A DNA stretch of 64,000 bases, from contig JAKLDQ010000003.1 in the NCBI GenBank assembly GCA_022703425.1, forward strand, positions 1,729 through 65,728, in the 5' to 3' direction. Below, piece by piece: positions 25,115 through 54,297 of the stretch (within the stretch, counting starts at the first letter, position 1; every line of letters begins with the position of its first letter). The notes beneath the pieces were generated by a model. That model worked only from the letters and a program-made list of their open reading frames with translations, was not told the DNA's origin and ran no database searches. The DNA is from Patescibacteria group bacterium (GTDB lineage Bacteria > Patescibacteriota > Minisyncoccia > Minisyncoccales > Staskawiczbacteraceae). The position numbers and the translations under genes are program-made.

Positions 25115-25274
25115 TGGAGTCGGCAGGACTCGAACCTGAAACCTCTTGCTTATTTCCATCGGCCTCAGATGATTTCCCGGGAGCCCAATTCCATTGGGCA
25201 TTGCGATTACATCTGAGAAGCTGGTACAAGCCGTGGAAATTTTGCAAGCGCTCTCCCAATTGAGCTACGACCCC
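25115..25274 (-). tRNA. tRNA-Ala-like gene with a 94-nt structured segment in place of the 7-nt anticodon loop
   Basis: GGGGTCG/CGACTCC acceptor (G3:U70), D arm GCTC-AATTGGGA-GAGC, anticodon stem CTTGC/GCAAG, variable AGGTT, T arm TCAGG-TTCGAGT-CCTGC. 94 nt lie between the anticodon-stem strands and fold into nested helices. Confidence 0.6.
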
Positions 25275-28409: not shown

Positions 28410-29345
28410 TTAGCTTGCAAAAAGACGATTTTTAAAGCGGGTTTTCAGATAGTCTGCAAATCCTGCAATGCTTCCCGAGAAATATAAATATATAAGCAGA
28501 ATTAAAATGAAAAGCGGAATTATAAAATAATCTGTAAAAATATTATTGCTGATGCCTGTATCTATTTCTGTCGGACCGACAAAATACGCTGCCTGGTCGG
28601 GCGGTAGAAACATATCTTCCCCCGCCTCAAACGTTCCTCCAAAGTCAATTCCAGCGGTAAAAAATTCGACATCCCGGCCATAAATAATATTTCCTGCGCT
28701 GTCCTGTCCAACCGCGCGATAGTGGTATTCTGTTCCCGGGAGCAGGCCAAAAACATGCTCATTAAAAAATCCTTCATCGTTCATCGGCGCCCGGAGAGTC
28801 GAAAAATTATAATTAATCGGATCTGTTCCCCACTCAAACCAAACAAGATTTTCATCCGGTCCGAGCTCTAAAACGCTTCCGTTAAGTATGGCGTCTATTG
28901 CAGAAACTTCGCTGGCAGGAAGTGATTCGACACGCAAATATCCGGAATCCTCCTGCGCCATTGCCAGATAGTCGGAGCTTTCGGATATTGTTGTAAAAAC
29001 CTGGTCCTGGCCGTAAAAGATTCCGTTATCTGTCTCAACAACGGCCCTGTAATGATAATCTTTGCCCGGCTGGAGCCCGATGGTATTTTCGTATTGCGCG
29101 CAGGGCCCGGAAATGGTTTCTTCAAGCGATGAATTTCCGTACTGGCTGGTCGGTCCCCATTCAAACCAAAACATTGCCTGGTCATTATCTCCCATATCTG
29201 AAACGAAACCATTCAATATTGCCGAGCCGTCGGTAATGTCTGAAGCTTCACCCGTGAATAAAACAACCTCGGACGCAAGAATCACTGCAACCGGCAGAAA
29301 TAAAAATCCGAGCAACGCCGCAAAAAATAACTTTCTTCTCTTCAT
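28410..29345 (-). CDS. secreted repeat protein (two FN3-like modules) with C-terminal sorting-like module
   Basis: Signal peptide from MKRRKLFFAALLGFLFL. Two modules end in Y-H-Y-R-A-V...YG.D..F.T. The C-terminus TEIDTGISNNIFTDYFIIPLFILILL... resembles that of the giant protein at 44 kb. Confidence 0.65.
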   Translation of the reverse strand: MKRRKLFFAALLGFLFLPVAVILASEVVLFTGEASDITDGSAILNGFVSDMGDNDQAMFWFEWGPTSQYGNSSLEETISGPCAQYENTIGLQPGKDYHYRAVVETDNGIFYGQDQVFTTISESSDYLAMAQEDSGYLRVESLPASEVSAIDAILNGSVLELGPDENLVWFEWGTDPINYNFSTLRAPMNDEGFFNEHVFGLLPGTEYHYRAVGQDSAGNIIYGRDVEFFTAGIDFGGTFEAGEDMFLPPDQAAYFVGPTEIDTGISNNIFTDYFIIPLFILILLIYLYFSGSIAGFADYLKTRFKNRLFAS

Positions 29346-43037: not shown

Positions 43038-43124
43038 CCTTAGGAGTAAAACCGTTCGAAAAATTTCGGGCTTTGTTTTTTTGTATCTTTTTGAATTGAT
43101 GATACATGAATGTAGAAGAAAAAA

Positions 43125-43566
43125 TGCAATAAAAGAGCGCCGAGTCGCTCCTTTGGACGGGGGTGAAATATCCAAAGGTTTGCGAAACGGCGCATTACAC
43201 GGCTTCTTGTGCTTCTTAGTTATGGTTCAAAGCGCGAGCCAAAAGCTTGGTCTGGGCTCATACAAGAAGCCGAATATTTGATGAGGAGGGGCCTCCGGAA
43301 AGGTGGTTCCGGTGCGAACGGGTTCCCGCTCCTCATCCGAGAGCTACAGCAGCTCTCGACTTATATTATAAGCTGACGGACGTCCGAGGATCTCGGGATA
43401 ATCGGAAGAGGGCATTTCTGCATATGCAGAGGGTTCAGAGTGGAAACTCGCGGGCCCGAGAAAATTGCGAGCACTATCTAAACCTGCCATACGGCCGTAC
43501 GGCAATGCGCTAAGCAGGCGCCCTTTCTTCGGGGTCCTGCTTTCCGTCAGCTAAAAGAGCAATGTT
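43125..43566 (-). ncRNA. candidate structured ncRNA C (~440 nt), class unknown
   Basis: G+C-rich, ORF-free block between recR and a convergent gene, with a minus-strand promoter and terminator. A 9-bp helix AGCUGACGG/CCGUCAGCU closes a ~200-nt 5' domain, and an 11-bp helix CGGCUUCUUGU/ACAAGAAGCCG lies in the 3' half. Confidence 0.42.
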
Positions 43567-43572
43567 TGCTCG

Positions 43573-43601
43573 TATAATAGCATAATAAAAAACAGGCGTC
43601 A
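43573..43601 (-). promoter_or_regulatory. sigma70-like promoter of ncRNA C (TTGACG-17-TATTAT)
   Basis: Minus strand: TTGACG 43601-43596 (inside the upstream terminator loop), 17-nt spacer, TATTAT 43578-43573. Confidence 0.5.
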
Positions 43602-43615
43602 ACCCGCCTGTTTTT
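43586..43615. terminator. bidirectional intrinsic terminator
   Basis: A6-CAGGCG-TCAACC-CGCCTG-T6, overlapping the last codons of the 43599-43982 gene. Confidence 0.75.
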
Positions 43616-43982
43616 TACGTCTTTGTTTTTCAGCACTCCTCACTTGGTGCTCGTCCATTCCGAAATGATGCGCTATTTCATGCCATACTGTATCTTTAAT
43701 GGCTTTTCTAATTGCATCGGGCGTCACGAATGCCTGCTCGATTGGATTTTTGAAAATTGTAATTTTATCTGGCAGAACCTGTCCGTATTGTTCTCTTTTT
43801 GTTAATGGAATGCCTTCGTATAATCCAAAAAGAAGCGCTCCTCTAAGCCTTAATTTATGTATCTGCTCAGGCGAGGGATTGTCTTCGATAACAATATCGA
43901 CGTTTTTCAATCTCTGCAGAAATTTTTCGTCAATCGCTTCAATTCCCTCTTTCACCAGATTCTCGAATTCTTCGTATGTCAT
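43599..43982 (-). CDS. minimal zinc metallopeptidase-like protein (DUF1025/zincin-like)
   Basis: HEIAHHFG (HExxH) near the C-terminus and IVIEDNPSPEQ...LFGLYEGIPLT, typical of this small family. Start at MTYEEFENL (43982). Confidence 0.72.
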   Translation of the reverse strand: MTYEEFENLVKEGIEAIDEKFLQRLKNVDIVIEDNPSPEQIHKLRLRGALLFGLYEGIPLTKREQYGQVLPDKITIFKNPIEQAFVTPDAIRKAIKDTVWHEIAHHFGMDEHQVRSAEKQRRKKQAG

Positions 43983-44038
43983 ATCAGCATTATACAAGCA
44001 AAAAAGCGTTTTTTCAACGCTTTTTTGCAATCATTTAA

Positions 44039-47000
44039 TTATAATGTCGGCCAGGGTTCGCTGGATTTAATTTTTGCGATTCTGGCTTTAAGTTCTTTAT
44101 TTGCCTTGAAGTCCTCGTTTTTTGCTTTTTGTGAATCAAGCCAAGCATTAAATCCCAAAGCTCCCGACTTGTACATCCAAATTCCGAAAAGTCCGAGAAG
44201 CAGCGGGATAAAGAACGAGTCAAACAGTAAATTGTTTGTCAGACCAGTATTAATGTCTGTTACCCCCAATACTCCGGTTCTGGTTACAACGATATTTGCA
44301 TTGCCGGTTATCGGATTTGAACTTTCGGCTGTAACCGTGACGCTGTTTGTAAGAGTTGTTGTGCCGTATGAAAAGTTTGCGGCCGAAGCAACCTGTGCGG
44401 AATATGTTATTGTCACCATCTGGCCGGCAGGAATTGAGTTTATCAAGACTCCGTATACGATATCATTTCCGCTGTAGTTATAATTTGCTCCGCTTACAAC
44501 CACGCTGTTATTCTGCAAAATCAATCTTGATGGCAAAAGGTCCTTTACAACAACATTTCTCACCTCCTGAGAGCTGTTTGCCTGGATTGTAATTGTAAAG
44601 TTCAGGATATCTGATGGCGAAGCTGCTGCGCTTGTTGACCAGTTGAAGTTGCCCGATGAAAGGTTTCTGACAGTTTTGTTTACCGTCAAAAGATTTCCAA
44701 CATTGCCTGTTGAAAATGTCATGTCCTGCCCGTAAATCGGTCCGCCTGCACCCTGCGCGACGGCTCTGAAGTGATAATAAGTGTTTGCTGATAATCCTGT
44801 AATGTTCTGGCTGAATGTGTTGTTATAATTCATCTGCTGGTGCTGAGTTTCATACCCGTATGAAGTTGTTGTTCCCCACTGGAACCAGACATAAACATTA
44901 TTGTAGTATCCGCTGTTGTATCCGTTATATCCGGACAGATATCCGTTTAATGTTGCCTGATTTGTAGATATGTTTGTCGCCGAATTTGTCTGGACTGAAA
45001 GTGTTTGCTGGATGCAGGATGAGTTTTGGCATCCGTACTGGCAGTATTCAATCAGTTCGTCCTGGTTTCCGCAGGAATCAAACCAATATAATGAATTACC
45101 AACGCAGCTTCTATAGTTATGGTCTGTGCAGGTTGTCTGGCAGCTTCCATTTGAACATTGCTGGTTGGAAGAACATTCTGTTGTCAGCCTGTCTTCTGTC
45201 GAGCTTGAGCAATTTGAATTGACTGTACCGGCATTATTGCAGATATAGGTTCTGTATGTTTTATAAACATCTCCATTCTTACAGAAAGGATTTCCGATAT
45301 ATCCGTTTGTTCCGCAATCTGCATTGCTATCGCAGGCGATATCAACATCCTCGCATTGGCCGTTTGAACAGGTCTGTGTTGAAGAACAGTTTGTTGCCAA
45401 TCTGTTTTCTGTGTTGGTCGAACAGCTTGAGCTTGGAGTGCCGGGATTGTTACAGACATATGTTCTGTATGTTCTGTAAACGTCGCCGTTCTGGCAGAAT
45501 GGATTTCCTATGAATCCGTTGGTTCCGCAGTCAGCGTTGCACGAGCAGGCAATATCAACATCTTCACATTGTCCGTTTGAACAGGTTTGCGAAGAAGAGC
45601 AATTAGTCTGAAGCCTGTCTTCTGTCGTATTTGAGCAAGAAGACGAAGGAGTTCCCGGATTTGTACAAATGTATGTTCTAAATGTCTTATAAACATCTCC
45701 GTCTCTGCAGAAAGGATTTCCGATGTAGCCATTGGTTCCGCATTCAGCATTTGAACTGCATGCAATTTCAAGATCAATACAGCTTCCTCCGCTACAGGTC
45801 TGATTTGACGTGCAATTTGTTAAAAGCCGGTTTTCATTATCTGTTGAGCAAGATGAATTTGGCGTTCCGGGATTGTTGCAGACGTATGATCTGTAAGTCT
45901 TGTAAACATCACCGTCATAACAAAATGGATTTCCGATGTAGCCATTGGTTCCGCATTCAGCATTTGTAGAACACTCTATATGCAAATCCTGGCACTGCCC
46001 GTTAGAGCACGTCTGGTTTGCTGTGCAATTTGTCATGAGTCGGTCTTCCTGAGAAGAAGAACATGAAGATGCAATTGTACCAGGGTTGTTGCAGGTGTAA
46101 ATTTTGAACGTTTTATAAACATCTCCGTTCCTGCAAAAAGGAGAGCCGATATATCCGTCTGTTCCGCAATCTGAATTTGAATCGCATGCGACGTTTGCGC
46201 ATTGTCCGTTAGAACAGGTTTGTCCTGATGCGCACGTTGTGATTAATCTGTCTTCAGTTGTATTAGTACAGGATGAAGCGGGAGTCCCCGGGTTTGCACA
46301 AATATATGTTTTATATGCTCTGTAGACATCTCCGTCTCTGCAGAACGGGTTTCCGATGTAGCCGTTTGTTCCGCAATCTGAATTGCATCTGCAGGCAACG
46401 GGCAAGTCCTGGCACTGTCCGTTAGAACATGTCTGGCTGGTTGTGCACTGGGTAACTAAAGTTGGCACAGTTGCATTTGAACAAACTGATGCAGGTGTTC
46501 CGGGATTTGAACATGTATATGTTTTTATATTTTGATATACTCCATTGCCTTGGCAGAAAGGGCCGCCAACTGGACCGTCTGCTCCGCAGTCAGAGTTTCT
46601 ATAGCAGGCAATATTTACACACTGTCCGTTAGAGCATGTTTGGCTCGATGTGCAATTTGTCATCAGCCTGTTTTCTGTTGAATTCGTGCAGGCAGATGCC
46701 GGTGTTCCGGGATTTGAACATGTGTATGTCTTGTAGGCTTTATAAACATCTCCGCTCTGGCAGAAAGGATTTCCAATATATCCGTCTGTTCCGCAGTCGG
46801 AGTTTCTATAACAGGTTACATTTGAACACTGTCCGTTTGAACAAACCTGATTTGTTAAACAGGATGTTACCAGTCTGCTCTCCGTTGAGTATGTGCAATT
46901 TGAAGCAGTTGTTCCCGGATTTACACAATCATATGTTTTATATGCTTTGTAGACATCTCCGCTCTGGCAGAAAGGATTTCCAATATATCCGTCTGTTCCG

Positions 47001-47596
47001 CAATCTGAATCGGTGCGGCAAACAATGTTTACACACTGAGCATTTTGGCACACCTGATTCGATGCACATGTTGTATAGATTTCTTCGCGATGTCCGCACG
47101 AATCGTACCAGTAAATCGCATTTCCGACGCACTGTTTGCTGGCATGAGAATTACAATTATGTCCGCACCTGAGCGTGCTTAACCATCTGTTGCCATATGT
47201 GCATGCGCTTCCAATCACGAAGTTATTTTGTGATGTACTCCATTTGCCAAGCACATTGTCACAGCATGAGCTCCATCCGCATCTTCCGCCATCAAAATAG
47301 CTGACGCAATCCATGTGCTCAACCTTGTCAAAACCTGCCAGCTGACAAACCTTCAATGCGGTTGTGCTGTCTAGGTTTAAAGCTCCCTGTCCGTGGTATT
47401 CGGAAGGAATTCTTCTATACCCGTACTGGGAAGCCAGGCTGTTTACGAAATCTCGGATTCCCATGGGATCCTTGTACCAATCCCCGATTGTGCTTGCCTG
47501 AACCGCCGAGCTGAAAGAGAAAAACAGCACAAAAATGGCAAGAGTGGCAAACCCCGCCTTTAATATTAAACCGAAAACATTTTTTTCTGCTTTCAT
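44039..47596 (-). CDS. giant secreted Cys-rich repeat surface protein with FN3-like and DUF11-like domains and a C-terminal sorting-like module
   Basis: Signal peptide and nine ~73-aa tandem repeats (C...[DE]CG[TA][DN]G.[IV]G.PFC..G.VY...[KR].Y.C.N.GT..S.C......RL.T.C...Q.CS.G.C). Then a Y-H-F-R-A-V FN3-like module and a DUF11-like repeat, ending ...TDINTGLTNNLLFDSFFIPLLLGLFGIWMYKSG. Confidence 0.85.
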   Translation of the reverse strand: MKAEKNVFGLILKAGFATLAIFVLFFSFSSAVQASTIGDWYKDPMGIRDFVNSLASQYGYRRIPSEYHGQGALNLDSTTALKVCQLAGFDKVEHMDCVSYFDGGRCGWSSCCDNVLGKWSTSQNNFVIGSACTYGNRWLSTLRCGHNCNSHASKQCVGNAIYWYDSCGHREEIYTTCASNQVCQNAQCVNIVCRTDSDCGTDGYIGNPFCQSGDVYKAYKTYDCVNPGTTASNCTYSTESRLVTSCLTNQVCSNGQCSNVTCYRNSDCGTDGYIGNPFCQSGDVYKAYKTYTCSNPGTPASACTNSTENRLMTNCTSSQTCSNGQCVNIACYRNSDCGADGPVGGPFCQGNGVYQNIKTYTCSNPGTPASVCSNATVPTLVTQCTTSQTCSNGQCQDLPVACRCNSDCGTNGYIGNPFCRDGDVYRAYKTYICANPGTPASSCTNTTEDRLITTCASGQTCSNGQCANVACDSNSDCGTDGYIGSPFCRNGDVYKTFKIYTCNNPGTIASSCSSSQEDRLMTNCTANQTCSNGQCQDLHIECSTNAECGTNGYIGNPFCYDGDVYKTYRSYVCNNPGTPNSSCSTDNENRLLTNCTSNQTCSGGSCIDLEIACSSNAECGTNGYIGNPFCRDGDVYKTFRTYICTNPGTPSSSCSNTTEDRLQTNCSSSQTCSNGQCEDVDIACSCNADCGTNGFIGNPFCQNGDVYRTYRTYVCNNPGTPSSSCSTNTENRLATNCSSTQTCSNGQCEDVDIACDSNADCGTNGYIGNPFCKNGDVYKTYRTYICNNAGTVNSNCSSSTEDRLTTECSSNQQCSNGSCQTTCTDHNYRSCVGNSLYWFDSCGNQDELIEYCQYGCQNSSCIQQTLSVQTNSATNISTNQATLNGYLSGYNGYNSGYYNNVYVWFQWGTTTSYGYETQHQQMNYNNTFSQNITGLSANTYYHFRAVAQGAGGPIYGQDMTFSTGNVGNLLTVNKTVRNLSSGNFNWSTSAAASPSDILNFTITIQANSSQEVRNVVVKDLLPSRLILQNNSVVVSGANYNYSGNDIVYGVLINSIPAGQMVTITYSAQVASAANFSYGTTTLTNSVTVTAESSNPITGNANIVVTRTGVLGVTDINTGLTNNLLFDSFFIPLLLGLFGIWMYKSGALGFNAWLDSQKAKNEDFKANKELKARIAKIKSSEPWPTL
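45130..47025 (-). repeat. tandem ~220-bp coding repeats (9 units) inside the giant surface-protein gene
   Basis: Repeated nucleotide blocks such as ggatttcc[ga]at[ag]ta[gt]cc[ag]t[ct][tg]gttccgca[ag]tc recur about every 220 bp. The borders are approximate. Confidence 0.75.
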
Positions 47597-47652
47597 GTAT
47601 TTTGCCCCAATCAAAGCAAAAAGCCGAATTATGGGCAGTTAATTATAGTAGT

Positions 47653-48327
47653 TTATATATCAAGTTTTGCTTCCACGGCAATCCTTTGCAGGTTTTTGCC
47701 CGGAGGCCAACAACTCACTAACACTAGCATACTGTCAGAATTTGTCAATCCTGACGGTGAGATTTCACTCCCTTTTGCTATTATCGATTTCCTAGTGACA
47801 GTATACGAAAATTGCTTGTGATTTACAACCAGGTGAACCTTGCTTCCCTCTGTTAGGTCATTTAGGTCGGAAAAAACCCAGTCATGTTTTATCATGGGCC
47901 AATTTTCTGGAGCTGAATGTCCCAGTATGATTGTTTGTCCGTTCTCACCAGGATCGGCAGATCCAGGATATACAATTACACCTTTGTCGAGCGCAGCAGA
48001 AAGTGTGCCGAGGTCAGCTGATTGAGGAAATGAAACGGGAACATCAATATTTATTTCTGGAATGCGGATGCTATTTTCTCTCTCAGAATAAACGAAAATC
48101 TCTTTTTTAATTTCCGCATTTTCCTGTGAGCTCTTTTGGTAAACAACATTGGGATTCTGCGAGTCAGCATTTGCGTTTTGGTATGGATAAATAAAATCAT
48201 TAAAAATTGCAGATATTGCACGATAATTAAAAATCCACGAAACATCAGCCCAGTTTATAATCAAAAAGCTTAGGACGTATACTATTCCAAAAACAAGAAA
48301 TAATTTTTTTGCCTGTTTTTTTGTCAT
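47653..48327 (-). CDS. sortase-family transpeptidase
   Basis: N-terminal TM anchor, IRIPEINIDVPV, QTIILGHS (catalytic His), LVLVSCWPPG (TLxTC-type Cys) and QRIAVEAKL (Arg). Confidence 0.8.
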   Translation of the reverse strand: MTKKQAKKLFLVFGIVYVLSFLIINWADVSWIFNYRAISAIFNDFIYPYQNANADSQNPNVVYQKSSQENAEIKKEIFVYSERENSIRIPEINIDVPVSFPQSADLGTLSAALDKGVIVYPGSADPGENGQTIILGHSAPENWPMIKHDWVFSDLNDLTEGSKVHLVVNHKQFSYTVTRKSIIAKGSEISPSGLTNSDSMLVLVSCWPPGKNLQRIAVEAKLDI

Positions 48328-49382
48328 TAAATTGAAACCTCGTGAGGGATAAATGTTGCAATTGAAGCCCTGTCAAGCATCGCTGTCGCAATGAGAATTG
48401 CGATTATCAATGCAGATCTGGCGAGCATGATTCTGTCGTTTATTCCCATGTTCACAAATATGTTAAGCAAGAAAGCAGAAATTACAATAGATAAAACAGA
48501 AAATACAATAACTTCAAGCAATTCGTCATATCTGTAAAGCGCGAAATTAAAAAACTTTAAATATAAATTATCTGATTCGCCCATCGGCATTCTGAAAGCG
48601 TCGCTTTCGGACAGGACTATTCCGCTTTCCTGATTTTCTGTTAAATTTTTCTCAGCAACTTGTGACGATACCTCTGCTATTTGCCCTGAACCCGTTTCGC
48701 TTTCTTCCTCAACAGGCGTTTCGGTTATTTTTTCTTCGTTATTGATGATATTTTTTTCGTTGTTAACATTTAGTGAAACAGCAGTTTCTCTCGGCGTTCC
48801 CAGAAGCTGAACCACAACAGTGGCATTGTTATCGCCAAATCCTTTCAAAACTGCAATCCCGATTTCGTGGAAATTGGGATTTAAAATATTTTCTCTGTGA
48901 GAAAGCGAATTTATCCAGGCGTCATAAACCTCCTTTGATTCCAGGAATCCGATGGCGAGGTTCTCACCGGCGTACTTGTATGAATATCCGGTTTTTAAAA
49001 ACCAAAACCACGGAGTTTTTCCCGTAGGGCTGTTATGACTGAAATATCCGTTTTCTACCATATCCTGCGCCTTAAGCTTTGCTGCTTCATCCAATTTCAT
49101 GCTTTCCTTAAGAATTGGAAGGCCAGCCTGCGATCGGGTATCATTTGTGAGGTTAATTATTGCATTTCTTGTAATGTCAGCAAAAAGCAGGTTAGATGGA
49201 AAATTAAATGACAATATTAGCAGCAGAAACTTTACTGCAAACAAAAATACCGCAAAATAAAACAAAGTGTTGCTTTGCAAAAATTTTGGTTTGAAATCAT
49301 TTCCTTTATTCGGGACAAAGGAATGCCTGAATTTCAACGCCAAATAGTCGAACAAATCTTCGTTTTTGAACGAATAGTCCAT
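48327..49382 (-). CDS. CAP/SCP (PR-1-like) domain protein with membrane anchors
   Basis: AQDMVENGYFSHNSPTGKTPW......YAGENLA....S..EVYDAWINSLSHRENILNPNFHEIGIAV is the CAP-domain signature. TM helices near both ends. TATAAT lies 7 nt upstream of ATG 49382. Confidence 0.75.
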   Translation of the reverse strand: MDYSFKNEDLFDYLALKFRHSFVPNKGNDFKPKFLQSNTLFYFAVFLFAVKFLLLILSFNFPSNLLFADITRNAIINLTNDTRSQAGLPILKESMKLDEAAKLKAQDMVENGYFSHNSPTGKTPWFWFLKTGYSYKYAGENLAIGFLESKEVYDAWINSLSHRENILNPNFHEIGIAVLKGFGDNNATVVVQLLGTPRETAVSLNVNNEKNIINNEEKITETPVEEESETGSGQIAEVSSQVAEKNLTENQESGIVLSESDAFRMPMGESDNLYLKFFNFALYRYDELLEVIVFSVLSIVISAFLLNIFVNMGINDRIMLARSALIIAILIATAMLDRASIATFIPHEVSI

Positions 49383-49529
49383 ATCTTTAATTATACACCA
49401 AACAAAAAGAAATGTCAAGTACATTTCCTTTCCTTATGTATTTGTTTAAATTACCCTATTTTGCCAATTTTTACCCCTTTTTGCAACAAAAAACCGCATT
49501 TTGCGGTCAATTGATTTCCAATATTTATA

Positions 49530-50366
49530 CTACTTATAATACGCTCTGTCTTTAAAGCGCAGATCGATATATTGCAACCCCCTCCTCTGCTCCGGGGCGA
49601 TCTCGTCATTCAGCAGCGAATTCATTCGAGTAATCTGCGCAGACGCATCCGCTTCGAGATTAAAATAAATCTGCCAATCTTCTGATGTTTGTATGTTTAA
49701 CCGTAAAGGATTTGTCACAAGCGCATCCATCACATCAATATCGAAATTACTTTTCAGATTTTTATCTATCTCTGAAATAAAGGCGATGACTTTTGAATTA
49801 ACAACATTTTCGCCCGTGGAAATGTCTGACTTTGAAAGGTCTTGTCGCACAATAGCCATGTCGGCCGGAATATCATAAATCTCCTCGTAAATAATCCCAC
49901 TTGCGTCCATTAAAAAGCATTTTTCACCCGAAATCTCGCTTAAAAAGGCGCAAAAAACAGCGGTCGGCGTACGCTCCTTAACTAAAACCGAAATTGTTTC
50001 CGGCCAGCTTTTTTTAACTTGTGCGCTTCCAATCTTCGGATATTCTGCCAGAATGTGCTGGCTGATGGCACCCGTATTCACAAGCAGCATGCTTTTGGTT
50101 GAAACCTTCCAGCCAAAGAGATCGATTAGCCTTATTTCTGAATCTAGATTTACAAGTTTTTTTATATCGTTTGTCGCAATCTGCACATTCCCGGCAATAT
50201 TAATATTGTTGACCTGAATTTTTTTAAAAAACAAAGTAAAATAAATTGCGCTGATTAAAAGCACGACAGCCAAGGCAAGATACCAAAAAAACGCCATTAA
50301 ATAAAACGGAGTTTTTGGCTTTATCTTTTGGATTTTTCTCTTTATATGCCCTTTTCTATATGACAT
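49530..50366 (-). CDS. ftsQ: cell division protein FtsQ (POTRA domain)
   Basis: Basic N-terminus, single TM helix and POTRA-like segment (VNNINIAGNVQIATNDIKKLV), in a murF-proximal context. Confidence 0.78.
   Translation of the reverse strand: MSYRKGHIKRKIQKIKPKTPFYLMAFFWYLALAVVLLISAIYFTLFFKKIQVNNINIAGNVQIATNDIKKLVNLDSEIRLIDLFGWKVSTKSMLLVNTGAISQHILAEYPKIGSAQVKKSWPETISVLVKERTPTAVFCAFLSEISGEKCFLMDASGIIYEEIYDIPADMAIVRQDLSKSDISTGENVVNSKVIAFISEIDKNLKSNFDIDVMDALVTNPLRLNIQTSEDWQIYFNLEADASAQITRMNSLLNDEIAPEQRRGLQYIDLRFKDRAYYK
49843..49854 (-). repeat. 13-mer family, 12/13 copy (TATTGTGCGACA) inside ftsQ
   Basis: In the sense orientation of ftsQ, encoding ..AIVRQ.. Confidence 0.6.
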
Positions 50367-50381
50367 CCGAGAAAATAAAAA

Positions 50382-51419
50382 TTATAGCCCGCGTTTAATC
50401 TTGCGTAATAGTTCTATTATATAATTAATCCAGTATTTTTGCGAAATCACGTAATCCTGCGTTTTTATGTATTCCTTTTTAAACCCGCCGTATCCCATTT
50501 TAAAGAGAGTCGGTCCTGCCCAGGGGTGATTCGGATTTTCCTTCGGATCAACAAATCCCCAAAAATCATACAGCTCGCATCCCCTGCTCTTTGCTTCCTT
50601 TATTGCTTCCCATTGCAATAAGTAAGGAATTGAATGCTTTGAAAACTCCTCCAACGAAGCCGCCTGATGATAAAAGCCGATGCCAGACCAGAAAATTACC
50701 AAAGCGCCCGCCGCAACCTCTCCTTTATATTTGCCCAGCAACAAAAGTGCCTGTCCGTCCTTGTTAAACGCATCAAACTCGTCATTTATAAATTTATCTG
50801 AAAAAGGAACGAATTTCTGGCGCTCAGAAACTTTTTTATTCAGTTGTTGATAGATTGCAATGTCAGACGGATTTTTGCTTTTTTCAATCGAGATATCCCG
50901 GCTGTCAGATGTTTTTTTGATCAGATAGCGCGTGGTCTTTCGCATATTCTTTAACAAAACATCTTCTGACTGGTTTATTTTCAGCTTCCATGTCGCTTCG
51001 TAGGCGGAAGCGTGCATCAGCGACTTCCTGAATTTTAAACCAGAAAAAATCTTTTCGTTCTCTGCGCTGTTTTCGAGCAAAGGCGCAATGCGGGCAAAGC
51101 TGGCATTCTCTTTTTTTGCATTTGACCTGAGCCATCCAACGAGCGTTTGTAAAATTTCCTTTTTTTCGTTTGCTGGCAGGTCTTCTGACATTACCGGACC
51201 ATGTGGAATTAAAAAGAAAGTCCCGCGTTTTGCAGAAATTTTAACAACCAAAGCTACGGCAAACGGCGCGCCGTCTGAATATATTCCGATTCTCCAGATT
51301 TTGTTTTTCTGTAATTTCTGGAATTCACCCCAATTCCATGACTGCAAAAACGTCTTTTCCTCGTGCAAAGACAAAAAATCCTCCCATTCCTGTTTGTTTT
51401 GTATTTCCTTAATCTGCAT
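50382..51419 (-). CDS. FemAB-family peptidoglycan interpeptide-bridge peptidyltransferase
   Basis: FLQSWNWGEFQK start and full-length similarity pattern to FemX/FemAB (..FYHQAAS.., YDFWG..). Confidence 0.82.
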   Translation of the reverse strand: MQIKEIQNKQEWEDFLSLHEEKTFLQSWNWGEFQKLQKNKIWRIGIYSDGAPFAVALVVKISAKRGTFFLIPHGPVMSEDLPANEKKEILQTLVGWLRSNAKKENASFARIAPLLENSAENEKIFSGLKFRKSLMHASAYEATWKLKINQSEDVLLKNMRKTTRYLIKKTSDSRDISIEKSKNPSDIAIYQQLNKKVSERQKFVPFSDKFINDEFDAFNKDGQALLLLGKYKGEVAAGALVIFWSGIGFYHQAASLEEFSKHSIPYLLQWEAIKEAKSRGCELYDFWGFVDPKENPNHPWAGPTLFKMGYGGFKKEYIKTQDYVISQKYWINYIIELLRKIKRGL

Positions 51420-52662: not shown

Positions 52663-54297
52663 TTAATTTTTTGTGAGCAGTTTTATCAATTTTTCGGGTA
52701 CCCTGCCCTCGAGCAGGACAGTGTCATCCTTTTTGCACAAAAGCGTTATGGTCTGGTAAATATCCTTTGAATCCTCGCAGTATATAATATTTCTCTCTTT
52801 CATTCCAGTCTCCATAGCTCCTCTTTTGATGTCATTAAATCTTTCCTTTGTTGTAATTATGCACATATCACATATTTCCCCGATTTTTTTTCCAAGCTTA
52901 TAATGAACTTCGGCGGATTTTTTTCCCAATTCAATAAGACAAGGCATTACAACAACTTTCTTTTGGGAGAAAATATTTAAATAATCGAGATCTGCCAAAG
53001 CGCCATCCGGGTTCGATGAATAAGATGAATCAATCACATTAATCCCGTGCACACCGGTTTTCTTTATCATTCCCGCCATTTCCTCCTTTATTTCTGAACA
53101 GGCCTCGGAAATTTGAGTCAAACTCATTGAAAGCTCCCTGGCAGTCAGAATTGCACCAAGCAAGTTCTCGACGTTTTGTCCGCCCAAGACATTTACCTTA
53201 AAATGGCCTATTTCTCTTCGCTTGTTTATCGTAACAAATGAAATTTGATTTTCAGTGATAGAGATGTCCTCTGTCCAGATGTCCAGATCAACGATTCCCT
53301 TCTCTCTTCCATAAATCCTCCGGTTTCCGACAGGAGGCAGGTCTGCGCGCTTATATAAATCAAGACAATATCTGTTATCTCCGTTTAAAAATAAAATCCC
53401 GTTTTTGCCGAGAGCGTTTGCTAATTCTCCTCCGCCTTCTGCCGACAACAGATTTTCCATTGTGCCGAACAATGACAGGTGCTGTTCGTTGACTCCGGTA
53501 ACAATTCCGAAGTCCGGCTTTACTATGTCGCACAATAAACTTATTCCTCCTTTGTTATATGATCCCATTTCCACAATAAAAATTTCGTGTTCTTTTTTTA
53601 AGTCGTTCAAAATACAATTCGCAATTCCAATCTCCGAATTCTGGTGCTCTTTTGTGCAAAGCACATTGTATTTTTTTGAAAGAATGGCAGTTAAAAATTC
53701 CTTTGTTGATGTTTTTCCGTAGGATCCTGTAATTGCAATTACCTTCGGTTTTCCGTAAACCGTTTTGAAATTTGCCATCTTTATTGAAGCTTTTTTCAGG
53801 ATTATGCTTCTCAGCAAAACAAAAAACGGCTGAAACGCCAGAACGATTGCAGAGACTACAAAAACAAAAAAGATATCGAAAACCAGTATATATAAAAGCG
53901 CCTGAGCATCATTTGTTATAAATACAGAGACCCATGTGATAAACAGAAAAACAATAATTAATGAAGCAAGCGACAGCAAGAGCGTTTTGGATGTTTTCTT
54001 CGGCTTTAAAACTGATTTTCGGTATATCGCGCGAAAAAATGATGCCGATTCAAAAACGTAAATTAAGAACAGCGCAGAAAAAAGATAAGAAATCAGCCAT
54101 GGAGAAAAAATAAGCAAAAAAGCGATTAAAATTTTTGAGTAAAACCAAAAATTAAAAATCAGCTTTCTGCCTTTGCTTGTTCTAAAGTGGTCAACAAATC
54201 GGCCGACGTGATAATCCTTCAGCTGCCAAAGAAAAAGCCAAAAAAGGACAAATTTTACAGTCCTAAAAAGCCAAACTGTGTTTAGAAGCAAAAACAT
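52663..54297 (-). CDS. murF: UDP-MurNAc-tripeptide--D-alanyl-D-alanine ligase (MurF-type Mur ligase) with polytopic membrane N-terminus
   Basis: AITGSYGKTSTKE P-loop at residues ~188-200, with Mur ligase middle and C-terminal domains. The first ~170 aa are 5-6 hydrophobic helices. Confidence 0.85.
   Translation of the reverse strand: MFLLLNTVWLFRTVKFVLFWLFLWQLKDYHVGRFVDHFRTSKGRKLIFNFWFYSKILIAFLLIFSPWLISYLFSALFLIYVFESASFFRAIYRKSVLKPKKTSKTLLLSLASLIIVFLFITWVSVFITNDAQALLYILVFDIFFVFVVSAIVLAFQPFFVLLRSIILKKASIKMANFKTVYGKPKVIAITGSYGKTSTKEFLTAILSKKYNVLCTKEHQNSEIGIANCILNDLKKEHEIFIVEMGSYNKGGISLLCDIVKPDFGIVTGVNEQHLSLFGTMENLLSAEGGGELANALGKNGILFLNGDNRYCLDLYKRADLPPVGNRRIYGREKGIVDLDIWTEDISITENQISFVTINKRREIGHFKVNVLGGQNVENLLGAILTARELSMSLTQISEACSEIKEEMAGMIKKTGVHGINVIDSSYSSNPDGALADLDYLNIFSQKKVVVMPCLIELGKKSAEVHYKLGKKIGEICDMCIITTKERFNDIKRGAMETGMKERNIIYCEDSKDIYQTITLLCKKDDTVLLEGRVPEKLIKLLTKN
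53526..53538 (-). repeat. 13-mer TTATTGTGCGACA, copy 7 (inside murF)
   Basis: Exact copy in the sense orientation of murF, encoding ..SLLCDI.. Confidence 0.9.

What the first reader, a model, noticed from the sequence alone, without database searches (positions are those of the whole stretch)
44039..48327. Sortase adjacent to a 1,185-aa surface protein; two proteins share a non-LPXTG C-terminal module
The sortase-family gene (47653-48327) has conserved His, Cys and Arg motifs and lies immediately upstream of the giant protein. That protein ends TDINTGLTNNLLFDSFFIPLLLGLFGIWMYKSGALGFNAWL. The unrelated FN3-like protein at 28410-29345 ends TEIDTGISNNIFTDYFIIPLFILILLIYLYFSGSIAGFADYL. The shared pattern T-[DE]-I-[ND]-T-G-[LI]-[TS]-N-N-x(1,2)-F-x-D-x-F-x-I-P-L-(TM)-SG-x2-GF-x2-[WY]-L is much longer than a classical LPXTG signal and extends past the TM helix. 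It may be a variant sorting signal ([DE]I[ND]TG in place of LPXTG) or a dedicated anchoring domain for this lineage.
Basis: partly seen in the sequence, partly recalled or inferred. Interest (0 to 1): 0.6.

Follow-up and report, generated by a model that had tools for sequence, protein, structure and literature searches.

The report
Proline-free sortase sorting signal in Parcubacteria
An uncultured ultra-small (CPR/Parcubacteria) bacterium keeps a sortase that fits none of the known classes next to a big adhesin-like protein. That protein's tail carries a strongly conserved, previously undescribed "TGLTNN...DSFFLPL" C-terminal module instead of LPXTG, and this is most likely this lineage's own cell-wall sorting signal.

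Summary
A real sortase (H137/C206/R215) lies 56 nt upstream of a 1,185-aa adhesin-like protein. That protein and a 311-aa FN3-like protein 19 kb away share a C-terminal module.

Two details are wrong. Both proteins continue past "...WL" (32 and 11 more residues). They are also not unrelated, because they share an FN3-like domain.

The module is a recurrent domain. A two-sequence profile found 217 cluster representatives, all with the match near the C-terminus. The invariant core is T-G-L-T-N-N-x3-D-S-F-x2-P-L-x7-W. Pfam and NCBIfam have no model for it, and I found no paper describing it.

It occurs in Ca. Staskawiczbacteria and related Parcubacteria, on CLIPPER, PKD, FN3 and lectin ectodomains. 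An orthologous sortase sits directly upstream in 32 of about 51 testable genome loci. In the reverse test, 27 of 31 sortase loci carry the module downstream.

The sortase falls below every NCBIfam class A-F cut-off. Its fold is closest to class C.

Best reading (0.6): a lineage-specific, proline-free sortase sorting signal.

Caveats:
- Cleavage is unproven.
- The scissile bond is ambiguous (T|G or T|N).
- The whole cell-wall/division gene block is syntenic, so adjacency alone is not decisive.

The parts
49390..49418 (-). Promoter-like site TTGACA-17-TATAAT (12/12 consensus). It lies 7 nt upstream of the ATG of the 351-aa form of the CAP gene and is the likely start of the CAP-sortase-substrate transcription unit.
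   Evidence: This is a consensus match only, and a leaderless start is inferred.
48327..49382 (-). CAP/YkwD-like membrane protein (351 aa; 365 aa if started at 49424). Its stop overlaps the sortase ATG (TAATG). A homologue lies upstream on the same strand (median start offset -982 nt) in 90 of 112 related sortase loci.
   Evidence: PF00188 E=1.1e-17, TIGR02909 2.7e-32 but below cut-off. Synteny, junction. Its role in the system is unknown.
47653..48327 (-). Sortase, 224 aa. It has an N-terminal TM helix (3-24), conserved interface helices (NW.DVSWIFNY, DFFxPY), a disordered linker (47-74) and a sortase beta-barrel (86-222). Catalytic codons: H137 at 47917-47919, C206 at 47710-47712, R215 at 47683-47685.
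44039..47596 (-). 1,185-aa adhesin-like predicted substrate. It has a signal peptide, an N-terminal domain, nine 69-71-aa Cys-rich repeats (93 Cys), one FN3-like domain, one CLIPPER/DUF11 isopeptide-type domain, and the long-form C-terminal module.
44042..44272 (-). Long-form module (77 aa): VLGVTDINTGLTNNLLFDSFFIPLLLGLFGIWMYKSGALGFNAWLDSQKAKNEDFKANKELKARIAKIKSSEPWPTL. It consists of an exposed linker with the motif, a short TM helix, an SG break, and a basic amphipathic cytoplasmic helix.
44231..44248 (-). Invariant hexapeptide T-G-L-T-N-N (T0 at 44246-44248). It contains both candidate scissile bonds, T0|G1 and T3|N4.
   Evidence: Conservation 127-149 of 150 per position. Coordinates. The cleavage site is inferred, not shown.
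28410..29345 (-). 311-aa protein with a signal peptide, two FN3-like domains and the short-form module. It is a second predicted substrate, in its own conserved locus.
28413..28583 (-). Short-form module (57 aa): FVGPTEIDTGISNNIFTDYFIIPLFILILLIYLYFSGSIAGFADYLKTRFKNRLFAS (T0 at 28557-28559).
49530..51419 (-). FtsQ-like (POTRA_1, 49530-50366) and FemAB-family (50382-51419) genes immediately upstream. They form the conserved cell-wall/division context, and FemAB is a possible source of the cross-bridge nucleophile.
   Evidence: The link to the sortase reaction is inferred.
43590..44030 (-). Zincin_1 metallopeptidase-like gene (43599-44030) followed by a terminator-like hairpin (43590-43609). This is the probable end of the transcription unit. 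The zincin gene is only weakly conserved at this position (18 of 112 loci).

Best explanation
The roughly 45-75-residue C-terminal module is the cell-wall sorting signal of a Parcubacteria-specific sortase system.

Proposed mechanism:
- Substrates are exported by Sec through an N-terminal signal peptide.
- They are held in the membrane by the module's short TM helix and basic cytoplasmic tail.
- They present the invariant T-G-L-T-N-N hexapeptide in a flexible linker about 6-11 residues above the membrane.
- The membrane-anchored sortase (Cys206/His137/Arg215) is encoded directly upstream, apparently in one operon with a CAP-domain protein and inside a Mur/FemAB/FtsQ cell-wall cluster. It cleaves within this hexapeptide, after T0 (xVST|G) or after T3 (TGLT|N).
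- It then transfers the ectodomain to a peptidoglycan precursor amine.
- The unusually conserved membrane-proximal part of the signal (NN-ff-x-DSFFLPL...W) probably docks on the equally conserved interface helix of the sortase (INWxDVSWIFNY). This would replace the Leu-Pro recognition of classical sortases.

Each genome has a sortase-adjacent 'long-form' substrate and at least one distal 'short-form' substrate.

Shown:
- The domain family, its C-terminal position and its tripartite layout.
- Its lineage range.
- Its linkage to the sortase clade.
- The intact catalytic triad and sortase fold.

Inferred:
- Cleavage.
- The scissile bond.
- The acceptor.
- TM-TM recognition.
For: Module family
- 217 representatives, with the match near the C-terminus in all 150 listed.
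- Position-specific conservation, n=150: T0 149, G1 148, L2 127, T3 147, N4 135, N5 139, D9 147, S10 140, F11 142, P14 147, L15 135, W23 135.
- It is portable across ectodomains. Of 104 proteins, CLIPPER/DUF11 occurs in 51, PKD in 22, and bMG10, Big_9, fn3, Laminin_G and cupredoxin in fewer.
- 106 of 139 M-starting proteins have an N-terminal hydrophobic stretch.

Layout
- In the AF2 model of the last 222 aa (pLDDT 87.7), the folded CLIPPER domain ends at residue 143.
- The motif lies in an extended, lower-confidence linker (144-165).
- A TM helix (166-180) and a cytoplasmic helix (186-216) follow.

Linkage to the sortase
- In 72 GTDB genome loci found through the module, an orthologous sortase (E 1e-50 to 1e-79) is directly upstream on the same strand in 33. 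That is 32 of about 51 loci with upstream sequence available.
- In 80 metagenome loci found through the sortase alone, 27 of 31 with at least 3 kb downstream carry the module, nearly always in the next gene.
- 34 of 59 assemblies with the module have the sortase confirmed.
- 59 of 60 adjacent copies are long-form, while short-form copies are never adjacent.

No competing substrates
- No LPXTG-type signal was found in 1.3 million residues of ORFs from these loci, against 104 module ORFs.

Sortase
- Invariant H/C/R, sortase barrel, Foldseek E about 1e-11 to class C sortases.
- The N-terminal interface helix is invariant at N25, W26, W31, F33 and Y35, which is unusual for a sortase anchor.

Operon and context
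- Overlapping CAP stop and sortase start, 56-nt gap to the substrate, consensus promoter and terminator-like site.
- FemAB, Mur ligase, FtsQ and FtsW/MurG context.

Substrate fold
- The membrane-proximal domain resembles sortase-assembled Gram-positive pilins and CLIPPER.
Against: - There is no biochemical or proteomic evidence of cleavage.
- The motif has no Pro or Ala at the position where experimentally confirmed sortase motifs (LPXTG, LAXTG, NPQTN, (S/P)PXTG) have one. The only proline-free precedent I checked, NVQTG of C. difficile CbpA, was not cleaved in vitro (PMC4155245).
- The TM segment and the cytoplasmic tail are conserved in sequence (W23, S27-G28, EKWLD, KEL..RI..I). That is unexpected for a part that would be discarded, and it fits a permanent anchor with its own function.
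- The whole block serS...FtsQ-CAP-sortase-substrate-recR is syntenic in this lineage. Upstream genes are present in 25 of 27 loci and recR in 12 of 17, against the module in 14 of 17. Adjacency may therefore be inherited rather than selected.
- In some genomes the gene after the sortase carries a different tail (SGFWxFLKxWYxWI-TM-FKRxSSE) with no TGLTNN.
- Two sortase loci have no substrate next door (L091/L096).
- For 25 of 59 assemblies, sortase presence could not be checked.
Confidence: 0.6

Rival explanations
1. The module is a permanent, uncleaved C-terminal membrane anchor. It would be a dedicated anchoring domain whose conserved juxtamembrane motif, TM helix and cytoplasmic helix have their own function, for example localisation to the division or cell-wall machinery or binding a cytoplasmic partner. 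On this view the sortase lies next to it only because the whole cell-wall/division gene block is syntenic.
For: - Sequence-level conservation of the TM helix and of a 31-residue cytoplasmic amphipathic helix.
- Block-wide synteny.
- Location inside a dcw-like cluster between FtsQ and MurD/FtsW/MurG in one 738-kb contig.
- No Pro/Ala-containing sortase pentapeptide.
- Other simple TM tails occur on related CLIPPER proteins, including one directly after the sortase.
Against: - A conserved, catalytically intact sortase in genomes of about 1 Mb needs substrates, and none of the classical type is seen near it.
- The most conserved stretch of the module is the extracellular T-G-L-T-N-N in a flexible linker, exactly where a sortase site sits.
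- The module is portable across unrelated ectodomains, as sorting signals are.
- The substrate gene varies from 383 to 2,218 aa yet keeps the tail.
Confidence: 0.22
2. The sortase is a class C-like polymerase. It would use the module to link substrates into covalent fibres (sortase-assembled pili or adhesin chains) rather than, or before, anchoring single proteins to peptidoglycan.
For: - The best sequence and fold matches of the sortase are pilus-specific class C enzymes.
- A nearly invariant D-F-F-x-P-Y motif lies between the TM helix and the barrel, where class C sortases carry their DP[FWY] lid.
- The membrane-proximal domain of the substrate matches shaft and basal pilins (PilA/PilB, BcpA, SpaD, LrpA) and has isopeptide-type K/D/N residues.
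Against: - Scores are far below the class C cut-off (51.7 against 160 bits).
- There is no C-terminal TM anchor on the sortase.
- There is only one sortase and usually one adjacent substrate, not a pilin cluster.
- Substrates are large and heterogeneous.
- No pilin-motif lysine was identified. The lid region has pLDDT below 50.
Confidence: 0.12
3. The module is a sorting signal for a different, unidentified processing enzyme. That enzyme could be exosortase-, archaeosortase- or rhombosortase-like, or the neighbouring zincin-like or CAP-domain protein. The sortase would then act on something else.
For: The tripartite layout (motif, TM, basic tail) is shared by all these systems. CAP is even more tightly linked to the sortase (overlapping genes; 90 of 112 loci). 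A zincin-like peptidase follows the substrate in the window.
Against: - No exosortase- or rhomboid-type polytopic protein is among the window's membrane proteins, although only 64 kb was examined.
- The zincin gene is present in only 18 of 112 loci.
- CAP domains are not known peptidases for such signals.
- Short-form loci share no candidate enzyme.
Confidence: 0.06

Closest known systems
LPXTG-type cell wall sorting signal with housekeeping sortase (class A in Firmicutes, class E LAXTG in Actinobacteria)
   Same: A C-terminal tripartite signal (short motif in an exposed linker, hydrophobic helix, basic tail) on Sec-exported adhesin-like proteins. A membrane-anchored Cys/His/Arg sortase with the catalytic domain outside. 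A peptidoglycan-synthesis context with FemAB.
   Different: - There is no Leu-Pro or Leu-Ala. The invariant core is T-G-L-T-N-N.
- Sequence conservation continues through the TM helix (D-S-F-x2-P-L...W) and, in the long form, through a helical cytoplasmic tail of about 30 residues.
- The sortase scores 27-68 bits against class models with cut-offs of 140-166.
- The sortase anchor region itself is strongly conserved.
- Neither TIGR01167 nor any other NCBIfam or Pfam model matches the tail.
Class C (pilus-assembly) sortases and their pilin substrates
   Same: The closest solved structures and the best class-model score are class C. The substrate's last folded domain is pilin/CnaA-like with isopeptide-type residues. 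The sortase and substrate genes are adjacent.
   Different: - No C-terminal TM on the enzyme.
- The lid is not demonstrable.
- There is a single enzyme and a single adjacent substrate.
- The substrate lacks LPXTG and a recognisable pilin motif.
- Identity to class C enzymes is only 20-25%.
Class B sortase / NPQTN and C. difficile SrtB (S/P)PXTG
   Same: These are examples of non-LPXTG sortase motifs. Read as T-G-x-T|N, the module has the same spacing of conserved and variable positions (P4, P3 conserved; P2 variable; P1 Thr; P1' Asn) as N-P-Q-T|N.
   Different: All of those motifs keep Pro at P3. No NCBIfam class B match was found at E<=0.01. The system here is not linked to haem uptake or to any class B context.
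Haft-type C-terminal sorting domains (PEP-CTERM/exosortase, PGF-CTERM/archaeosortase, GlyGly-CTERM/rhombosortase, MYXO-CTERM)
   Same: It is a lineage-restricted, HMM-detectable C-terminal domain made of motif, TM and basic cluster. It is found on many otherwise unrelated surface proteins and was discovered by its association with a processing enzyme.
   Different: The associated enzyme here is a sortase-fold transpeptidase, not a polytopic membrane protease. The domain is longer and is conserved on both sides of the membrane.

Membership tests
Sortase superfamily (PF04203 / TIGR01076) | Profile match above the curated cut-off | tested here: met
   PF04203 70.2 bits (cut-off 26.6). TIGR01076 49.5 bits (cut-off 39.35)..
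Sortase superfamily (PF04203 / TIGR01076) | Catalytic His, Cys (TLxTC-like strand) and Arg | tested here: met
   H137 (ILGHS), C206 (LVSCWPPGK) and R215 (QRIAV) are invariant in 120 homologues and align with the catalytic residues of 7d6p/6ixz/8gmx.
Sortase superfamily (PF04203 / TIGR01076) | Eight-stranded sortase beta-barrel with an N-terminal membrane anchor | tested here: met
   AF2 model: pLDDT about 90 over residues 86-222, helix 3-24. Foldseek top 50 hits are all sortases, E down to 1.2e-11.
Sortase classes A-F and GN (NCBIfam NF033745-8, NF058671, TIGR03784) | Score at or above the curated class cut-off | tested here: not met
   Window enzyme: C 51.7/160, SrtD 48.8/140, D 40.9/165, E 31.4/160, F 30/166, GN 21.6/158. 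No class A or B match at E<=0.01. Four relatives behave the same way, including three that NCBI records label 'class E sortase'.
Class C sortase | Lid with a DP[FWY] motif occluding the active site | tested here: inconclusive
   A nearly invariant D44-F45-F46-x-P48-Y49 lies between the TM helix and the barrel. However, the region has pLDDT below 50 in the model.
Class C sortase | C-terminal TM anchor and a cluster of pilin genes | tested here: not met
   The protein ends 2 residues after the last barrel strand (E214-222 of 224). Usually a single adjacent substrate gene is present.
LPXTG cell wall sorting signal (TIGR01167-type) | LPXTG or an accepted variant pentapeptide (Pro/Ala at P3) | tested here: not met
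   The tails read VTDINTGLTNN and PTEIDTGISNN. The family consensus is [TS]x[VI][SP]TGLTNN. No NCBIfam or Pfam model matches at E<=10, apart from one chance Pfam hit at E=0.12.
LPXTG cell wall sorting signal (TIGR01167-type) | Motif followed by a hydrophobic segment and a positively charged tail at the extreme C-terminus, on a protein with an N-terminal signal peptide | tested here: met
   Positional profile and tail lengths. AF2 layout. N-terminal hydrophobic stretch in 106 of 139 proteins. The signal peptides of both window proteins were read directly.
LPXTG cell wall sorting signal (TIGR01167-type) | Cleavage by sortase and amide linkage to a peptidoglycan cross-bridge | not testable with these tools
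   This needs biochemistry or proteomics.
Exosortase / archaeosortase / rhombosortase sorting systems | Cognate polytopic membrane processing enzyme in the genome | tested here: inconclusive
   None is among the window's multi-TM proteins, which are FtsW/RodA, EamA, GtrA, DUF2207, CDP-OH transferase and MreD. Only 64 kb of the genome is available.
CLIPPER/DUF11 isopeptide stalk domain (PF01345) | Profile match above the cut-off and a CnaA-like beta-sandwich with K/D/N isopeptide-type residues | tested here: met
   PF01345 34.9 bits (cut-off 24.6) at residues 996-1105. TIGR01451 28.4 bits (cut-off 24).. The AF2 sandwich matches 9ifr and pilins. Isopeptide formation itself was not tested.

The most novel reading that the evidence does not exclude
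This is a sortase system whose specificity does not rest on a Leu-Pro/Ala pentapeptide. Instead it would rest on a proline-free T-G-x-T-N-N motif plus sequence-specific contacts within or at the membrane, between the substrate's D-S-F-F-L-P-L...W helix and the enzyme's own conserved N-W-x-D-V-S-W-I-F-N-Y interface helix. It is embedded in the division/cell-wall gene cluster of Parcubacteria. The enzyme would therefore install host-contact adhesins (or fibres) at sites of new wall synthesis in these episymbionts. It would amount to a seventh functional sortase class with an orthogonal recognition mode.
Probability: 0.25. Interest if true: 0.8.

Novelty: new variant of a known kind. Interest (0 to 1): 0.6.

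Why it matters
Sortases occur in more than half of CPR genomes (PMC6744442). I found no description of what they recognise there, and the surface proteins of these uncultivated episymbionts are mostly unannotated.

- **Annotation.** A validated signal would give a simple sequence handle for listing the wall-anchored surface proteome of Staskawiczbacteria and related Parcubacteria. That proteome consists of adhesin-like CLIPPER, PKD, FN3 and lectin proteins that probably mediate host contact.
- **Enzymology.** It would extend known sortase specificity to a proline-free motif with a membrane-embedded recognition element.
- **Tools.** It could supply an orthogonal enzyme/tag pair for sortase-mediated ligation.
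- **Databases.** It corrects a database label. The 'class E sortase' name on relatives is not supported by the class E model.

Tried and rejected
1. Word-indexed homologue search with the 85-aa tail found nothing, because no candidate shared three 5-mers. The exhaustive profile search was needed instead.
2. Pfam and NCBIfam scans of the isolated tails at E<=10 gave no family, only a chance Hantavirus Gc hit at E=0.12.
3. Full-length search with the FN3-like protein returned only four distant FN3 proteins. Two have a different tail (FFPKSxxGWL + TM) and none has the module.
4. Cluster look-ups gave no organism or product names. The lineage was therefore inferred from the titles of related genome records.
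5. Literature searches for the motif string and for sortase with CPR, Parcubacteria or Patescibacteria found general statements only and no description of this signal. Subscription-only papers are not covered.
The scissile bond therefore stays undecided.
7. I considered NVQTG of C. difficile as a proline-free precedent. I rejected it as support, because it was not cleaved in vitro.
8. I considered the upstream V-T-R-T-G as a hidden LPXTG-like site. I rejected it because it is the last beta-strand of the CLIPPER fold and is absent from short-form proteins.
9. An Rfam search of the ORF-free gap 43038-43598 found nothing meaningful.

Full report
**What is in the window**

The region 43.6-49.4 kb on the minus strand holds four co-directional genes.
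- A CAP/YkwD-like membrane protein lies at 48327-49382.
- A 224-aa sortase lies at 47653-48327.
- A 1,185-aa protein lies at 44039-47596.
- A small zincin-like gene lies at 43599-44030.

The CAP stop overlaps the sortase ATG (TAATG), and 56 nt separate the sortase from the large gene. A perfect TTGACA-17-TATAAT match lies 7 nt before the CAP ATG, and a terminator-like hairpin follows the zincin gene. These are consensus matches, so the operon is inferred.

Upstream come FtsQ, FemAB, DegT, a Mur ligase, a hydrolase and serS. The window also carries 23S and 5S rRNA, a tRNA whose Rfam match spans 160 nt, FtsW/RodA and MreD. Related sequences come from Ca. Staskawiczbacteria and other Parcubacteria, so the organism is a CPR/Patescibacteria bacterium that makes peptidoglycan.

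**Checking the observation**

The sortase call is sound.
- PF04203 scores 70 bits.
- H137, C206 and R215 are invariant in 120 homologues.
- They align with the catalytic residues of solved sortases.

Both quoted tails exist, and they are the only two copies in the window.

Two details are wrong. Both proteins continue beyond '...WL', by 32 and 11 residues. They are also not unrelated, because the large protein has an FN3-like domain homologous to both domains of the small one (7e-15).

The large protein reads as a fibrillar-adhesin type. It has a signal peptide, nine 69-71-aa Cys-rich repeats, an FN3-like domain and a CLIPPER/DUF11 domain. CLIPPER is the isopeptide stalk domain described in bioRxiv 10.1101/2025.04.25.650565.

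**The module is a real, recurrent C-terminal domain**

A profile of only the two window tails, run against 1.84 billion representatives, gave 217 hits at E<=1e-3. In every one of the 150 hits listed, the match lies at or near the C-terminus.

Anchored on the invariant Thr (T0), the conservation among 150 tails is as follows.

| Position | Residue (count of 150) |
|---|---|
| -8 | V (88) |
| -6 | G (102) |
| -5 | A (117) |
| -4 | T/S (145) |
| -3 | variable |
| -2 | V/I (145) |
| -1 | S (102) or P (21) |
| 0 | T (149) |
| +1 | G (148) |
| +2 | L (127) |
| +3 | T (147) |
| +4 | N (135) |
| +5 | N (139) |
| +9 | D (147) |
| +10 | S (140) |
| +11 | F (142) |
| +14 | P (147) |
| +15 | L (135) |
| +23 | W (135) |
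| +26 to +28 | [KR]-S-G |

The window's own tails (DINTG, EIDTG) are divergent members.

There are two tail forms.
- The short form ends about 42-48 residues after T0, as ...YFSGxxYxFADWLKxK.
- The long form is about 64-72 residues, with EKWLDxKKK followed by a KEL..RI..I helix. Some long-form tails end in WPTL.

Neither Pfam nor NCBIfam (June 2026) has a model that touches the module. No paper in the searchable library contains the motif in this sense.

**Where the module occurs and on what**

A scan of GTDB species genomes with the module alignment gave 72 loci in 59 assemblies. Most are Ca. Staskawiczbacteria, with some Nealsonbacteria, Minisyncoccales and generic Parcubacteria/Patescibacteria records. 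Two hits in a 'Nanoarchaeota' bin and a 'Bipolaricaulis' bin sit on 2-kb contigs. My guess, not checked, is that these are binning errors.

Of 104 module proteins scanned against Pfam, 51 carry CLIPPER and 22 carry PKD. Others carry bMG10, Big_9, fn3, Laminin_G or cupredoxin domains. All of these are extracellular domain types, so the module is portable in the way sorting signals are.

**Link to the sortase**

In the module-selected genome loci, an orthologue of the window sortase (phmmer E 1e-50 to 1e-79) lies directly upstream on the same strand in 33 of 72 loci. That is 32 of about 51 loci where upstream sequence exists. Most of the rest are truncated contigs or second copies in genomes whose other copy is sortase-adjacent.

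The reverse test is independent of the module. Among 80 metagenome loci selected by the sortase alone, 27 of 31 with at least 3 kb downstream have a module-bearing ORF, almost always the next gene.

- Adjacent copies are long-form in 59 of 60 cases.
- Short-form copies are never adjacent. They occupy their own conserved locus, next to a tRNA-binding-domain protein and an FKBP.
- The window shows exactly this arrangement.
- No LPXTG-type signal occurs in 1.3 million residues of ORFs from these loci.

**An important caveat on synteny**

The whole block is conserved in this lineage. In sortase-selected loci with at least 6 kb of flank, FtsQ, FemAB, DegT and Mur ligase are present in 25 of 27. The module is present in 14 of 17, recR in 12 of 17, and zincin in 6 of 17.

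In one 738-kb contig the pair sits between FtsQ/CAP and MurD-FtsW-MurG. Conserved adjacency is therefore partly inherited gene order and is not decisive on its own.

In that same contig, and in L090, the gene after the sortase carries a different tail (SGFWxFLKxWYxWI-TM-FKRxSSE). A TGLTNN protein lies elsewhere on the 738-kb contig.

**The enzyme**

The AF2 model (pLDDT 79.6) shows four parts.
- A TM helix (residues 3-24).
- Two short helices (26-46) carrying the nearly invariant N25-W26...S30-W31-x-F33-N34-Y35 and D44-F45-F46-x-P48-Y49.
- A disordered linker (47-74).
- A confident sortase barrel (86-222).

The best structural matches are class C pilus sortases (E about 1e-11, 20-25% identity), followed by class E and class A.

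Every NCBIfam class model scores far below its cut-off. This holds for the window enzyme and for four relatives, including three that GenBank records label 'class E sortase'. It is thus an unclassified clade, with at least 1,226 clusters at E<=1e-5.

**The substrate tail in three dimensions**

The AF2 model of the last 222 residues (pLDDT 87.7) has this layout.
- The CLIPPER sandwich ends at residue 143.
- V-L-G-V-T-D-I-N-T-G-L-T-N-N-L-L-F-D-S lies in an extended, lower-confidence linker (144-165).
- A 15-residue helix (166-180) forms the hydrophobic core.
- A break follows at S-G-A-L-G.
- A 31-residue amphipathic basic helix (186-216) comes last.

The sandwich matches sortase-assembled pilins (S. 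sanguinis PilA/PilB, BcpA, SpaD, LrpA) and the CLIPPER crystal structure 9ifr.

Topology is consistent. The Lys-rich N-terminus of the sortase and the Lys-rich substrate tail would both face the cytoplasm. The barrel and the motif would both be outside.

**Most likely mechanism (confidence about 0.6)**

The module is this lineage's cell-wall sorting signal and the adjacent enzyme is its sortase. Cleavage would occur within T-G-L-T-N-N, followed by transfer to a peptidoglycan amine.

Two scissile bonds are possible.
- T0|G1 gives [polar]-[VI]-[SP]-T|G.
- T3|N4 gives T-G-x-T|N. This has the same pattern of conserved (P4, P3, P1, P1') and variable (P2) positions as LPXTG and NPQTN.

The co-conservation of the substrate's membrane-proximal segment and the enzyme's interface helix suggests recognition at the membrane surface. 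This is inference only.

**Rivals**

- An uncleaved dedicated anchor (0.22) is favoured by the conserved TM and cytoplasmic helix and by block synteny.
- Class C-like fibre polymerisation (0.12) is favoured by the enzyme's nearest relatives and the pilin-like domain.
- A different processing enzyme (0.06).

**Novelty and interest**

Sortases in CPR bacteria are known (PMC6744442). I found no description, database model or annotation for this signal or this sortase clade. It is a new variant of a known kind of system, not a new kind. Interest is moderate to high (0.6). The signal is strikingly conserved, proline-free and extends across the membrane. It would open the surface proteome of a large uncultivated group to annotation, but function remains unproven.

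Noticed in passing
window 47740-47790 (sortase residues about 180-196); also L029, L041, L064, L066, L073, L036, L038, L059: The loop just before the catalytic-Cys strand of the sortase itself reads ...PSGLTNSDS... in the window. In about ten relatives it reads LTNN, GLTND or GLTNY, which echoes the substrate's G-L-T-N-N. This could be chance, a pseudo-substrate, or a pairing element.
   Followed up: no
window 48180-48200 (sortase residues 44-49): A nearly invariant D-F-F-x-P-Y motif lies between the TM helix and the barrel, where class C sortases have their DP[FWY] lid. The AF2 confidence there is below 50, so docking on the active site could not be judged.
   Followed up: partly
window 49382-49418: A perfect sigma-70 consensus (TTGACA-17-TATAAT) ends only 7 nt before the ATG of the CAP gene. 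This suggests a leaderless CAP-sortase-substrate transcript. It also argues for the 351-aa rather than the 365-aa start.
   Followed up: partly
window 48327-49382: A homologue of the CAP/YkwD-like membrane protein lies upstream of the sortase on the same strand in 90 of 112 related sortase loci. In the window its stop overlaps the sortase start. The function of this pairing is unknown. There is a weak sub-threshold match to the divisome-associated lipoprotein DalA.
   Followed up: partly
L090 6282-9203; L156 10773-11918; L157; L154 2211-3290; also P0004 and P0005: Other C-terminal tails occur on related CLIPPER or FN3 proteins. One is SGFWxFLKxWYxWI-TM-FKRxSSE, sometimes in the gene directly after the sortase. 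Another is GxxFFPKSxxGWL-TM-basic. These may be further lineage-specific anchors or decayed versions of the module.
   Followed up: partly
window 44042-44056; P0014, P0067, P0076, P0100, L029: A sub-clade of long-form tails, including the window's, ends in a conserved W-P-[TKV]-L at the extreme C-terminus.
   Followed up: no
window 52663-54297: The Mur ligase ORF (544 aa; 539 aa in a relative) has about 180 N-terminal residues with five predicted TM segments ahead of the Mur_ligase_M domain. That is unusual for a normally cytoplasmic enzyme. One JGI gene call starts later (438 aa).
   Followed up: no
window 43038-43598: A 560-bp stretch between recR and the zincin gene has no convincing ORF and no Rfam match (best E=0.42). 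It contains a strong bidirectional hairpin at 43586-43617.
   Followed up: partly
window 25115-25274: An Rfam tRNA match spans 160 nt, so the gene apparently contains an intron or insertion.
   Followed up: no
window 44700-47050 (giant protein residues about 190-830): There are nine tandem 69-71-aa Cys-rich repeats (motif [DN][SA][DE]CG[TA][DN]G...; 93 Cys in the protein) with no Pfam family. The same repeat occurs in separate genes next to the sortase in L141.
   Followed up: partly
P0167, P0173, P0184, P0185, P0193 (relatives of the window sortase): GenBank records name these 'class E sortase'. For the three rescanned here (P0167, P0173, P0193), the NCBIfam class E model gives 33-44 bits against a cut-off of 160, and the class D and C models score higher. 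The label looks unsupported.
   Followed up: yes
L066 6914-7549: A degraded second sortase copy (...LDLTNNKNMLLLISCWPSDKDLRRIAIEATMVK, preceded by low-complexity sequence) lies between the intact sortase and the module gene. In several lineages, Pro-rich secreted proteins are inserted at this position.
   Followed up: no
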